Positions 11,160-14,487 of a stretch of 64,000 nucleotides of DNA are shown here, in pieces. Origin of the DNA: Escherichia coli (GTDB lineage Bacteria > Pseudomonadota > Gammaproteobacteria > Enterobacterales > Enterobacteriaceae); the NCBI RefSeq assembly GCF_009931435.1, contig NZ_CP043414.1; one strand, given 5' to 3'. Made by a program: the position numbers and the translations under genes. Numbering within the stretch: the stretch's first letter is position 1; each line of letters opens with the position of its first letter. The notes beneath the pieces are model-generated. The model had not been told where the DNA came from. It searched no databases and saw only the letters and a program-made list of their open reading frames with translations.

Positions 11160-13513
<2,354 letters not shown>

Positions 13514-13792
13514 TTAATTTACTAAACATGGTTTGGTCAGCATAGCATCATGTTGTGCAATTAAACACCTGCTATTTTAATTTTTGTTACAGAGGCTAAA
13601 CAGACCGAATCACGGCGACGAGAAAACGAGAAGTTACTGGCTGGCGAAGGATTAGGTGGTGAAATAAAAAGGCCGTTGGGTTACTCTTCAGGCAGTTAAA
13701 TGGGCATTTCTACACAGATAATGCGATGTTCAGATTCTGTAGACTTATAATGATAGATAATAATCCGTCTACAGCATGACAAACAAAAACAG

Positions 13793-13915
13793 ATGCGTTA
13801 CGGAACTTTACAAAAACGAGACACTCTAACCCTTTGCTTGCTCAAATTGCAGCTAATGGAGTGGCGTTTCGATAGCGCGTGGAAATTTGGTTTGGGGAGA
13901 CTTTACCTCGGATGA
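13793..13915 (+). CDS. rseD: rpoE leader peptide / upstream ORF, stop overlaps rpoE start (ATGA)
   Basis: Frame +1 relative to rpoE reads MRYGTLQKRDTLTLCLLKLQLMEWRFDSAWKFGLGRLYLG*; TGA at 13913-13915 overlaps rpoE ATG 13912-13914; true start uncertain (upstream in-frame extension lacks an ATG; internal ATG at 13856). Confidence 0.45.
   Translation: MRYGTLQKRDTLTLCLLKLQLMEWRFDSAWKFGLGRLYLG
13802..13829 (+). promoter_or_regulatory. SigmaE-type promoter (-35 GGAACTT, 16-bp spacer, -10 TCTAA) upstream of rpoE
   Basis: Match to the sigmaE consensus GGAACTT-N16-TCTRA; position fits the autoregulated rpoE promoter. Confidence 0.6.
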
Positions 13916-14487
13916 GCGAGCAGTTAACGGACCAGGTCCTGGTTGAACGGGTCCAGAAGGGAGATCAGAAATCCTTTAACTTACTGGTAGTGCGCTATCA
14001 GCATAAAGTGGCGAGTCTGGTTTCCCGCTATGTGCCGTCGGGTGATGTTCCCGATGTGGTACAAGAAGCTTTTATTAAAGCCTATCGTGCGCTGGATTCG
14101 TTCCGGGGAGATAGCGCTTTTTATACATGGCTGTATCGGATTGCTGTAAATACAGCGAAAAATTACCTGGTTGCTCAGGGACGCCGTCCACCTTCCAGTG
14201 ATGTGGATGCCATTGAAGCTGAAAACTTCGAAAGTGGCGGCGCGTTGAAAGAAATTTCGAACCCTGAGAACTTAATGTTGTCAGAAGAACTGAGACAGAT
14301 AGTTTTCCGAACTATTGAGTCCCTCCCGGAAGATTTACGCATGGCAATAACCTTGCGGGAGCTGGATGGCCTGAGCTATGAAGAGATAGCCGCTATCATG
14401 GATTGTCCGGTAGGTACGGTGCGTTCACGTATCTTCCGAGCGAGGGAAGCTATTGATAACAAAGTTCAACCGCTTATCAGGCGTTGA
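13912..14487 (+). CDS. rpoE: ECF sigma factor sigmaE (sigma-24)
   Basis: ORF track starts at GTG 13879; conserved N-terminus MSEQLTDQVLVERVQKGD starts at ATG 13912 (191 aa); sigma-70 region 2 and 4. Confidence 0.95.
   Translation: MSEQLTDQVLVERVQKGDQKSFNLLVVRYQHKVASLVSRYVPSGDVPDVVQEAFIKAYRALDSFRGDSAFYTWLYRIAVNTAKNYLVAQGRRPPSSDVDAIEAENFESGGALKEISNPENLMLSEELRQIVFRTIESLPEDLRMAITLRELDGLSYEEIAAIMDCPVGTVRSRIFRAREAIDNKVQPLIRR

What the first reader, a model, noticed from the sequence alone, without database searches (positions are those of the whole stretch)
13793..13915. rseD leader ORF translationally coupled to rpoE, with a sigmaE-type promoter inside it
A +1-frame ORF ends with TGA overlapping the rpoE ATG (ATGA at 13912-13915), the classic arrangement for translational coupling. 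A sigmaE-consensus promoter (GGAACTT-N16-TCTAA, 13802-13829) lies inside this ORF downstream of its first ATG (13793), so transcripts from it could only translate the leader from the internal ATG at 13856. Different promoters would then yield different leader-peptide lengths and possibly different coupling efficiency.
Basis: partly seen in the sequence, partly recalled or inferred. Interest (0 to 1): 0.35.

Follow-up and report, generated by a model that had tools for sequence, protein, structure and literature searches.

The report
Known rseD leader before rpoE
This is the already described E. coli rseD leader reading frame, which ends on the start codon of the envelope-stress sigma factor gene rpoE and contains that gene's self-activated promoter; the only unusual thing here is a rare G-to-A change that destroys rseD's annotated start codon.

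Summary
An open frame ends in ATGA on the rpoE start (13912-13915). An exact sigmaE promoter (GGAACTT-N16-TCTAA, 13802-13829) lies inside it.

It is not new. RefSeq annotates this as rseD (b4725, NCBIfam NF033697) in essentially all complete E. coli genomes. Held papers describe the rseD-rpoE-rseABC operon and an autoregulated promoter within rseD.

The annotated gene is 51 codons and starts at 13760, not 13793. Only 1 of 5425 complete genomes shares that allele.

Comparisons across 80 gammaproteobacterial loci show:
- The ATGA overlap follows from RpoE starting Met-Ser or Met-Asn (72/78 loci).
- The RseD peptide is under no detectable protein-level constraint.
- The family is confined to Escherichia, Shigella and Citrobacter.
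- What is conserved is cis-regulatory DNA and RNA.

SigmaE-driven transcripts (predicted +1 at G13836) cannot encode full RseD. Their only in-frame AUG (13856) has no Shine-Dalgarno sequence and is not enriched across lineages, so the promoter-specific leader idea remains geometric and untested.

One side lead: the 5' end of the sigmaE transcript is predicted to pair with the rpoE start codon through a 9-bp helix conserved in Enterobacterales.

The parts
13746..13751 (+). Perfect sigma70-type -10 hexamer TATAAT inside the conserved block ACTTATAATGA. It ends 8 nt before the annotated rseD start codon.
   Evidence: Sequence. The block is conserved across most of the Enterobacteriaceae genera sampled. 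No published start site could be checked here.
13760..13915 (+). rseD as annotated in RefSeq (51 codons plus stop; b4725 in K-12). In this window the start codon is ATA, not ATG.
   Evidence: Coordinates mapped from N96 and K-12 annotation. Translations. NCBIfam NF033697: 104 bits against a cut-off of 35.
13760..13762 (+). ATA at the position of the annotated rseD ATG. The G>A at 13762 is the only difference from K-12 between 13648 and 13959.
   Evidence: The 61-mer carrying ATA is found in 1 of 5425 complete E. coli genomes (STLEFF_47), on a different upstream haplotype.
13779..13791 (+). A-rich tract ACAAACAAAAACA directly upstream of the -35 element. Candidate UP element of the sigmaE promoter.
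   Evidence: Conserved in Enterobacteriaceae. Rhodius et al. describe A/T-rich UP sequences upstream of sigmaE -35 motifs (PMC1312014). The assignment is an inference.
13793..13915 (+). 40-codon ORF from the first ATG present in this window.
   Evidence: The 40-aa form scores 92.7 bits on NF033697. Citrobacter amalonaticus RseD is annotated from this Met (P0012).
13802..13829 (+). SigmaE-dependent rpoE promoter: -35 GGAACTT (13802-13808), 16-nt spacer, -10 TCTAA (13825-13829).
   Evidence: Position and motifs conserved with a free spacer. Matches the Rhodius motif and spacing. The literature calls it the autoregulated P6, formerly P2 (PMC6358824).
13836..13844 (+). Predicted +1 (G13836) of the sigmaE transcript, and its 5'-terminal element GCUUGCUCA. 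This is the 5' strand of the predicted long-range helix.
   Evidence: TSS inferred from the 5/6-nt discriminator, purine +1 and 26/27-nt -35-to-+1 distance. Element nearly invariant in 32 Enterobacterales. Helix.
13856..13915 (+). 19-codon ORF from the internal ATG (Met33 of RseD). It is the only AUG on the predicted sigmaE transcript leader.
   Evidence: No Shine-Dalgarno sequence (dG +1.6).
13864..13883 (+). Small hairpin GCGUU/AGCGC followed by GUGGA. The GGA at 13881-13883 is a candidate for the first CsrA site.
   Evidence: Fold. Block conserved. CsrA binds three sites in rpoE mRNA (PMC7652899). Mapping to this GGA is an inference.
13890..13913 (+). rpoE translation initiation region. SD GGGGAG (13894-13899) is paired with CCUC in a U-rich bulged stem that reaches the AUG. 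GGA motifs lie at 13896-13898 and 13910-13912.
   Evidence: Fold. SD dG -8.5. A bulged U-rich stem linking SD and AUG is described for the polyamine modulon (PMC4191411, PMC4951125). CsrA sites overlap the SD and start codon.
13912..14487 (+). rpoE (sigmaE). Its ATG overlaps the rseD TGA as ATGA at 13912-13915.
   Evidence: WP_001295364.1 in the near-identical genome.
13913..13921 (+). UGAGCGAGC: the U and G of the rpoE start codon plus codons 2-3 and the first base of codon 4. This is the 3' strand of the predicted long-range helix.
   Evidence: Codons 2-5 are nearly invariant at synonymous sites in 32 species, while later codons vary.

Best explanation
Window 13760-13915 is the E. coli rseD leader reading frame of the rseD-rpoE-rseA-rseB-rseC operon. 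Its UGA overlaps the rpoE AUG (AUGA).

Proposed mechanism:
1. On transcripts from the upstream promoters, ribosomes that translate rseD terminate on the rpoE start codon and re-initiate there.
2. As they pass, they may also melt the structured, CsrA-bound rpoE initiation region, adding to initiation from rpoE's own Shine-Dalgarno sequence.
3. The sigmaE-dependent autoregulated promoter lies inside rseD and starts transcription at about G13836. SigmaE-driven transcripts therefore lack the rseD start, and rpoE is translated from them mainly through its own ribosome-binding site.
4. The ORF acts in cis. Its peptide sequence is not what selection preserves.

In this strain the annotated start codon is ATA. 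Full-length RseD initiation should therefore be reduced to a few percent, and any remaining coupling should come from AUG 13793 (Met12).

Status of each step:
- Shown here: the anatomy, the annotation match, promoter conservation, the rarity of the allele, and the lack of protein-level constraint.
- Taken from the literature: that rseD is translated, and that CsrA binds the leader.
- From my memory of Yakhnin et al. 2017, which could not be read here: that rpoE is translationally coupled to rseD.
- Inferred: re-initiation, structure melting, and the effect of ATA.
For: Annotation and family:
- rseD and rpoE are annotated under the match in every listed row of a search that hit 5425 of 5426 complete E. 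coli genomes.
- K-12 b4725 and N96 map to window 13760-13915.
- NF033697 leader_RseD, an equivalog model, scores 104 bits.

Literature:
- Operon and promoter layout: PMC8595263.
- Six promoters, with P6 being EsigmaE-autoregulated: PMC6358824.
- CsrA binds three sites, two over the SD and the AUG: PMC7652899.
- rseD expression detected by PIRT-Seq; the same paper says it was validated earlier by a lacZ fusion: PMC12350097.

Promoter: exact motif. It is conserved at about -110 in about 30 species with a variable spacer. Its geometry fits Rhodius et al..

Cis action rather than a functional peptide:
- E. coli versus Citrobacter differences in the rseD frame fall 5/6/5 by codon position, with 10 nonsynonymous and 1 synonymous codon changes. 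In rpoE they fall 4/1/33, with 4 nonsynonymous and 33 synonymous.
- Homologues occur only in Escherichia, Shigella and Citrobacter, with varying N-termini.
- Conserved residues coincide with DNA/RNA blocks that are also conserved in species lacking the ORF.

Some selection for an ORF in this frame: it is the longest open frame in 17 of 28 genus-level lineages (p = 0.003, not corrected for phylogeny). It carries an ATG at least 15 codons upstream in 14 lineages, versus 1 and 7 for the other frames.

Start-codon allele. AUA initiates at 1-2% of AUG (bioRxiv 10.1101/063800).
Against: - None of the three candidate starts (13760, 13793, 13856) has any Shine-Dalgarno complementarity, so how rseD is initiated is unclear.
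- The primary paper on coupling (Yakhnin et al. 2017, PMC5686586) is not held. Its design and effect size (I recall a loss of more than 50%) could not be checked.
- Close relatives such as Pseudocitrobacter, Kluyvera and RIT691 have an in-frame stop only 8 codons before the rpoE AUG and still keep the whole leader. The ORF is therefore dispensable for rpoE expression in those lineages.
- Natural E. coli alleles with a premature stop (W41*, 20 contigs) or frameshifts exist.
- This strain and STLEFF_47 have lost the annotated ATG, which argues for weak selection on the ORF.
Confidence: 0.8

Rival explanations
1. Promoter-specific leaders. Upstream-promoter transcripts translate the long leader (51 aa normally, 40 aa in this strain). 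SigmaE-driven transcripts translate a 19-aa leader from AUG 13856. Coupling strength to rpoE would then differ with promoter choice.
For: - The geometry is right. Predicted +1 is G13836, and AUG 13856 is the only AUG in the 76-nt leader. It lies in the coupling frame, 20 nt from the 5' end.
- An AUG 19-22 codons before the AUGA, in the same frame, recurs in Serratia, Yersinia, Rahnella, Pectobacterium, Photorhabdus and Enterobacter cloacae. In Serratia, Yersinia, Rahnella and Photorhabdus it is preceded by AGGA (dG -4.3 to -4.4).
- Folding predicts that the two transcript classes present the rpoE start very differently.
Against: - There is no SD before AUG 13856 in E. coli (dG +1.6).
- In other Enterobacteriaceae genera the aligned triplet is not ATG (for example ACG, ATA or GTG).
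- ATGs inside the sigmaE leader are spread evenly over the three frames (8, about 7 and about 7 lineages; my tally).
- No experimental evidence was found in the held papers.
Confidence: 0.15
2. By-product ORF. The open frame is an unselected consequence of stop-free regulatory DNA plus the unavoidable ATGA (Met-Ser). rpoE translation in this strain runs essentially through its own SD under CsrA, polyamine and RNA-structure control. rseD contributes nothing of consequence.
For: - ATGA occurs in 72 of 78 loci regardless of any upstream ORF.
- There is no protein-level constraint.
- Taxonomic range is narrow and annotated starts are inconsistent.
- Disrupted natural alleles exist, including this window's ATA.
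- rpoE has a strong SD of its own.
- The major stress-induced transcript starts inside the ORF.
Against: - Translation of rseD in K-12 is reported by two methods (PMC12350097). Coupling is reported too, but I know that only from memory of Yakhnin 2017, which was not readable here.
- The coupling frame is open more often than the other two frames in Enterobacterales (17/28; 47 stops versus 76-80 in 152 nt).
- The ATG is retained in 5424 of 5425 complete genomes (inferred from the single mismatch).
Confidence: 0.2
3. RseD is a trans-acting small protein of the envelope stress response, a fifth Rse regulator whose sequence matters.
For: It carries a gene name and an equivalog model. It is expressed in K-12. 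As I recall, the original authors raised this possibility; I could not verify that here.
Against: - 10 nonsynonymous versus 1 synonymous codon change between E. coli and Citrobacter, with substitutions spread evenly over codon positions.
- Conserved residues map onto promoter and RNA elements.
- The ORF is absent from most Enterobacteriaceae genera sampled.
- Truncated and frameshifted alleles circulate.
Confidence: 0.04

Closest known systems
rseD (ORF51, b4725) - rpoE translational coupling in E. coli K-12 (Yakhnin et al. 2017, J Bacteriol; NCBIfam NF033697)
   Same: Same locus, same frame and same AUGA overlap. The sequence from 13648 to 13959 is identical to K-12 except for one base. The sigmaE promoter lies inside the ORF, as the literature states.
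   Different: The annotated start codon ATG is ATA here (G>A at 13762). The first ATG is Met12. Only 1 of 5425 complete genomes shares this allele.
SigmaE-dependent autoregulated rpoE promoter (rpoE P2 of the 1995 papers; P6 of Klein et al. 2016; sigmaE promoter model of Rhodius et al. 2006)
   Same: GGAACTT, a 16-nt spacer, TCTAA, a 6-nt discriminator, a purine +1 and an A-rich upstream tract all fit the published model.
   Different: Nothing differs. The -10 is TCTAA rather than the consensus TCAAA, as in K-12.
CsrA-controlled uORF coupling at iraD (Park et al. 2017), and uORF-gene coupling in general, such as uof-fur
   Same: A short upstream ORF whose translation feeds the downstream regulator, on a leader with CsrA GGA sites.
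   Different: At rpoE the reported CsrA sites lie over rpoE's own SD and AUG rather than over the uORF start. rpoE also has a strong SD of its own. The uof-fur comparison rests on my own knowledge and was not checked here.
Polyamine-modulon structure in the rpoE initiation region (Terui et al. 2009)
   Same: The U-rich bulged stem joining the distant SD to the AUG is reproduced by the folds.
   Different: The additional 9-bp helix between the 5' end of the sigmaE transcript and the start codon is not mentioned in any held paper I could read.

Membership tests
RseD leader peptide (NCBIfam NF033697, equivalog) | Profile score above the curated cut-off (35 bits) | tested here: met
   The 51-codon translation scores 104.2 bits and the 40-aa form 92.7 bits.
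RseD leader peptide (NCBIfam NF033697, equivalog) | Located directly upstream of rpoE on the same strand, with its stop codon overlapping the rpoE start | tested here: met
   ATGA at 13912-13915. Same coordinates as annotated rseD in N96 and K-12.
RseD leader peptide (NCBIfam NF033697, equivalog) | Canonical start codon at the annotated 51-aa start | tested here: not met
   ATA at 13760-13762, where K-12 and N96 read ATG. PGAP nevertheless annotates the same ATA allele in STLEFF_47 as WP_001303621.1. ATG 13793 gives a 40-aa form like that of C. amalonaticus.
RseD leader peptide (NCBIfam NF033697, equivalog) | The ORF is translated | not testable with these tools
   Reported for K-12 and BW25113 only (PMC12350097). 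No data exist for the ATA allele.
SigmaE (RpoE, ECF) dependent promoter | -35 GGAACTT, spacer 15-19 nt (16 preferred), -10 TCNAA, 5/6-nt discriminator, purine +1 | tested here: met
   13802-13808, 16 nt, 13825-13829, then CCCTTT, then G13836.
SigmaE (RpoE, ECF) dependent promoter | Phylogenetic footprint: motifs conserved, spacer free | tested here: met
   GAACTT...TC(T/C/A)AA at -108 to -113 in 24 of 33 Enterobacterales loci, and displaced (-94 to -105) in five more. The spacer sequence is unconstrained.
SigmaE (RpoE, ECF) dependent promoter | Transcription depends on EsigmaE | not testable with these tools
   Stated in the literature for E. coli (PMC6358824; PMC8595263).
Translational coupling by termination-reinitiation | Overlapping or adjacent stop and start codons | tested here: met
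   AUGA. However, it is also present in 72 of 78 loci irrespective of any uORF.
Translational coupling by termination-reinitiation | The downstream initiation region is occluded unless the upstream ORF is translated | tested here: inconclusive
   The SD-AUG stem is predicted in both transcript classes. The long-range helix over the AUG is predicted only for the sigmaE transcript (P = 0.91 versus 0.02 or less). The fold z-scores are not significant (-1.18 and -0.76).
Translational coupling by termination-reinitiation | Blocking upstream translation lowers downstream expression | not testable with these tools
   Recalled from Yakhnin et al. 2017 (loss of more than 50%). The paper is not held.

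The most novel reading that the evidence does not exclude
rpoE translation is set by which promoter made the mRNA. The sigmaE-driven transcript begins exactly with GCUUGCUCA. This element pairs with UGAGCGAGC (the U and G of the start codon plus codons 2-4) in a 9-bp helix that is near-invariant across Enterobacterales. The helix would act as a translational brake, or as a 5'-end stabiliser, on the positive-feedback transcript. Longer transcripts do not form the helix; instead they carry lineage-variable, sequence-unconstrained uORFs (rseD being the Escherichia/Citrobacter version) that end on the start codon. The rare ATA allele in this window would then be a natural partial loss of the uORF arm only.
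Probability: 0.3. Interest if true: 0.5.

Novelty: already known. Interest (0 to 1): 0.2.

Why it matters
SigmaE is essential in E. coli and controls envelope homeostasis and virulence traits, so every layer of its dosage control is of interest. The feature flagged here is already annotated and published, so it adds nothing new in itself.

What this check adds:
1. The strain carries a very rare natural start-codon knock-down of rseD. It could serve as a ready-made allele for testing how much the leader ORF really contributes.
2. The RseD peptide shows no protein-level constraint. The gene is best viewed as a cis-acting uORF, and its 51-aa annotation as a convention.
3. A conserved pairing between the 5' end of the sigmaE transcript and the rpoE start codon is a testable candidate for promoter-dependent translation of an autoregulated sigma factor.

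Tried and rejected
- Primary papers. Yakhnin 2017 (DOI and PMC5686586) and Klein 2016 (PMC5087721) are not held. The coupling experiment and the P1-P5 start sites could therefore not be checked. My recollection that a start site lies near -153 is unverified and was not used as evidence.
- Start-site data sets. The Cappable-seq supplement is truncated and has no hits. Kim 2012 supplements gave no hits. Conway 2014 has no supplements held. PIRT-Seq supplements do not mention rseD. Weaver 2019 does not mention rseD or rpoE in its main text.
- Rfam. No family reaches significance over 13480-14100 (best E = 1.4).
- Generic sigma70 and terminator scan of 13480-13960: nothing found. The scan requires a -35 match, so it misses the TATAAT at 13746.
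- RseD as a conserved protein: rejected on codon-position statistics and distribution.
- The 19-codon uORF as a conserved feature: not supported. In-frame ATGs in the leader are not enriched.
- ATGA as evidence of coupling: rejected as uninformative on its own.
- Whole-leader fold stability: z-scores of -1.18 and -0.76 are not significant. Support for the long-range helix comes from conservation and compatible substitutions only, with one compensatory pair.

Full report
**What is in the sequence.** The window holds nadB on the minus strand (11882-13504). On the plus strand it holds rpoE (13912-14487), rseA, rseB and rseC, followed by lepA.

- The rpoE ATG is at 13912.
- TGA at 13913-13915 closes an ORF in the frame of ATG 13793 and ATG 13856.
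- GGAACTT (13802-13808), a 16-nt spacer and TCTAA (13825-13829) lie inside that frame.

The exact promoter pattern occurs once in the 64-kb window. With one mismatch allowed, 0.22 matches are expected by chance.

**It is an annotated, published gene.** A 456-nt query over the region matches 5425 of 5426 complete E. coli genomes, and every listed row carries "rseD: rpoE leader peptide RseD" next to rpoE.

Mapping the annotation of the closest genome (N96) and of K-12 (b4725) onto the window puts rseD at 13760-13915, which is 51 codons. The translation hits NCBIfam NF033697 (leader_RseD, equivalog) at 104 bits against a cut-off of 35.

Held papers support the same picture:
- The operon is described as rseD-rpoE-rseA-rseB-rseC, with all promoters "upstream of, or within" rseD (PMC8595263).
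- Six promoters are described, of which P6 (formerly P2) is the EsigmaE-autoregulated one (PMC6358824).
- CsrA binds three sites in the rpoE mRNA, two of them over the SD and the start codon (PMC7652899).
- rseD expression was detected by PIRT-Seq, and the same paper says it was validated earlier by a lacZ fusion (PMC12350097).

The primary coupling paper (Yakhnin et al. 2017) is not held. Its claim that rpoE is translationally coupled to rseD, and that losing the coupling costs more than half of rpoE translation, is from my memory only.

K-12 and N96 read gataATGatccg at the annotated start. The window reads gataATAatccg.

From 13648 to 13959 the window is identical to K-12 except for this G>A at 13762. 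Against its closest relative N96 there are only two differences in 456 nt, and this is one of them.

A 61-mer centred on the site is 100% identical in only one complete genome, STLEFF_47. All the others differ, and every listed row differs by exactly one base. STLEFF_47 carries the same A on a different upstream haplotype, with 16 differences. The change has therefore arisen or been transferred at least twice.

PGAP still calls rseD from the ATA in that genome. AUA initiates at about 1-2% of AUG in E. coli reporters (bioRxiv 10.1101/063800). I infer that full-length RseD initiation is strongly reduced here. A sequencing error in the window cannot be excluded.

**The promoter is real; the peptide is not what is conserved.** I fetched 80 rpoE loci spanning Enterobacterales, Vibrionales, Pasteurellales, Alteromonadales and Aeromonadales. 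In Enterobacterales the -35 GGAACTT and -10 TC(T/C/A)AA sit at the same distance from the rpoE ATG, while the spacer is free to vary.

The geometry fits the sigmaE model of Rhodius et al.: a 16-nt spacer preferred, a 5/6-nt discriminator, a purine at +1, 26/27 nt from -35 to +1, and an A/T-rich UP region (PMC1312014). This predicts +1 at G13836.

Other conserved blocks are:
- ACTTATAATGA, a perfect TATAAT at 13746-13751.
- An A-rich tract upstream of the -35.
- GCTTGCTC at the predicted +1.
- A small hairpin followed by GTGGA.
- TTTGGGGAGAC(A/T)TTACCTCGGATGAGCGAG.

The ORF, by contrast, is not conserved:
- RseD homologues are found only in Escherichia, Shigella and Citrobacter, with N-termini of 40, 51 or 54 aa.
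- A 1-nt indel shifts the Citrobacter start onto the ATG inside TATAATG.
- Pseudocitrobacter, Kluyvera and RIT691 have an in-frame stop 8 codons before the rpoE AUG.
- Between E. coli and Citrobacter sp. FP75, substitutions in the rseD frame fall 5/6/5 over codon positions, with 10 nonsynonymous and 1 synonymous codon changes. In rpoE they fall 4/1/33, with 4 nonsynonymous and 33 synonymous.
- Natural E. coli alleles with W41-stop (20 contigs), frameshifts and a 3-aa deletion exist.

**The ATGA overlap and the open frame.** ATGA is present in 72 of 78 loci because RpoE begins Met-Ser (AGC/AGT) or Met-Asn (AAC/AAT). Outside Enterobacterales the overlapping frame is open for a median of 6 codons, so the overlap alone says nothing.

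Within Enterobacterales, however, the frame is open for a median of 38 codons. It is the longest open frame in 17 of 28 genus-level lineages (binomial p = 0.003 against 1/3, not corrected for phylogeny). It carries an ATG at least 15 codons upstream in 14 lineages, against 1 and 7 for the other frames. Stop counts over 152 nt are 47, against 80 and 76. This is suggestive evidence that an ORF ending on the rpoE start, of arbitrary sequence, is favoured. That pattern is typical of cis-acting uORFs.

**The promoter-specific leader idea.** A sigmaE transcript starting at 13836 lacks 13760 and 13793. AUG 13856 is its only AUG, 20 nt from the 5' end, and it lies in the coupling frame.

Evidence against its use:
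- It has no SD (dG +1.6 versus -8.5 kcal/mol for rpoE). Positions 13760 and 13793 have none either.
- In other Enterobacteriaceae genera the aligned triplet is not ATG, for example ACG, ATA or GTG.
- ATGs in the leader are spread evenly over the three frames (8, about 7 and about 7 lineages; my tally).

Evidence in favour: Serratia, Yersinia, Rahnella, Pectobacterium, Photorhabdus and Enterobacter cloacae have an AUG 19-22 codons upstream in the same frame. In Serratia, Yersinia, Rahnella and Photorhabdus it is preceded by AGGA.

The idea is geometrically sound and untested. I give it about 0.15.

**A structural lead on mechanism.** Folding 13836-13945 pairs the 5'-terminal GCUUGCUC with GAGCGAGC (codons 2-4). 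It also pairs the SD with CCUC in a U-rich stem reaching the AUG. The latter corresponds to the bulged stem described for the polyamine modulon.

For the long-range helix:
- It is the only consensus helix RNAalifold returns on 32 Enterobacterales leaders.
- As a 9-bp helix (13836-13844 with 13913-21), 98.2% of cells are paired, against 25-45% for slid controls.
- It shows one compensatory change, 16 one-sided compatible changes and 5 unpaired cells. Covariation is therefore weak, and the support is mostly conservation.
- rpoE codons 2-5 are nearly invariant at synonymous sites, while later codons vary.

Partition-function folding gives P(helix) = 0.91 and P(AUG paired) = 0.91 for the sigmaE transcript, and P(helix) of at least 0.79 in 17 of 23 species. 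For transcripts starting at 13759, 13694 or 13585 it gives P(helix) of 0.02 or less and P(AUG paired) of 0.05-0.13.

Whole-leader fold z-scores are not significant, and Rfam has no family here. This remains a prediction. If it holds, the accessibility of the rpoE start depends on the promoter used.

**Verdict.**
- The finding is a correct recognition of a known feature, so novelty is "already known" and interest is low.
- The most likely mechanism is cis-acting coupling on upstream-promoter transcripts, plus SD-driven, CsrA- and structure-modulated initiation on sigmaE transcripts.
- Two things are worth a follow-up experiment: the ATA allele as a natural test of rseD's contribution, and the helix between the transcript's 5' end and the rpoE start codon.

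Noticed in passing
window 13760-13762 (G>A at 13762): The annotated rseD start codon ATG is ATA in this strain. The same allele occurs in only 1 of 5425 complete E. coli genomes (STLEFF_47), on a different upstream haplotype, and PGAP still annotates rseD from it.
   Followed up: yes
window 13836-13844 with 13913-13921: A predicted 9-bp helix joins the exact 5' end of the sigmaE-dependent transcript (GCUUGCUCA) to the rpoE start codon and codons 2-4 (UGAGCGAGC). It is the only RNAalifold consensus helix in 32 Enterobacterales leaders. Synonymous sites of codons 2-5 are nearly invariant. The helix is predicted to form in the sigmaE transcript (P = 0.91) but not in longer transcripts (P of 0.02 or less). 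It is not mentioned in any paper I could read.
   Followed up: partly
window 13746-13751 (TATAAT) and 13750-13779: A perfect -10 hexamer lies in a block (ACTTATAATGA) conserved across most Enterobacteriaceae genera sampled, and ends 8 nt before the annotated rseD start. A transcript from it would begin at or next to that codon and could be leaderless. The ATG inside TATAATG opens a 9-codon ORF here. In Citrobacter a 1-nt indel makes that ATG the annotated RseD start.
   Followed up: partly
L025, L028 (Serratia), L030 (Yersinia), L019, L027 (Rahnella), L031, L032 (Pectobacterium), L035 (Photorhabdus): about 1135-1204 in each locus: These genera carry unannotated 19-22-codon uORFs on the predicted sigmaE leader. 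The uORFs end in the same ATGA on rpoE. Except in Pectobacterium they are preceded by AGGA. Their sequences are unrelated to RseD.
   Followed up: partly
proteins P0006, P0003, P0007, P0011, P0004: Natural E. coli and Shigella rseD alleles exist with a premature stop 11 codons before rpoE (W41*, 7 member sequences, 20 contigs), frameshifts, or a 3-aa deletion. These are ready-made uncoupled alleles.
   Followed up: no
L036-L083, positions about 1190-1215: In Vibrionaceae, Alteromonadales and others, the rpoE start is flanked by GCTCG(A/G)-ATG-A(G/A)CGAGC. This is a local 5-bp inverted repeat with the AUG in the loop. Many Alteromonadales also keep GCTTGC just after the sigmaE -10 element. The start-codon pairing theme may therefore be older than Enterobacterales.
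   Followed up: no
window 13530-13647: The distal part of the nadB-rpoE intergenic region, where upstream rpoE promoters are reported to lie, is polymorphic. There are 16 differences from STLEFF_47 and three from K-12 in the part compared. The region from 13648 to rpoE is invariant apart from the start-codon SNP.
   Followed up: no
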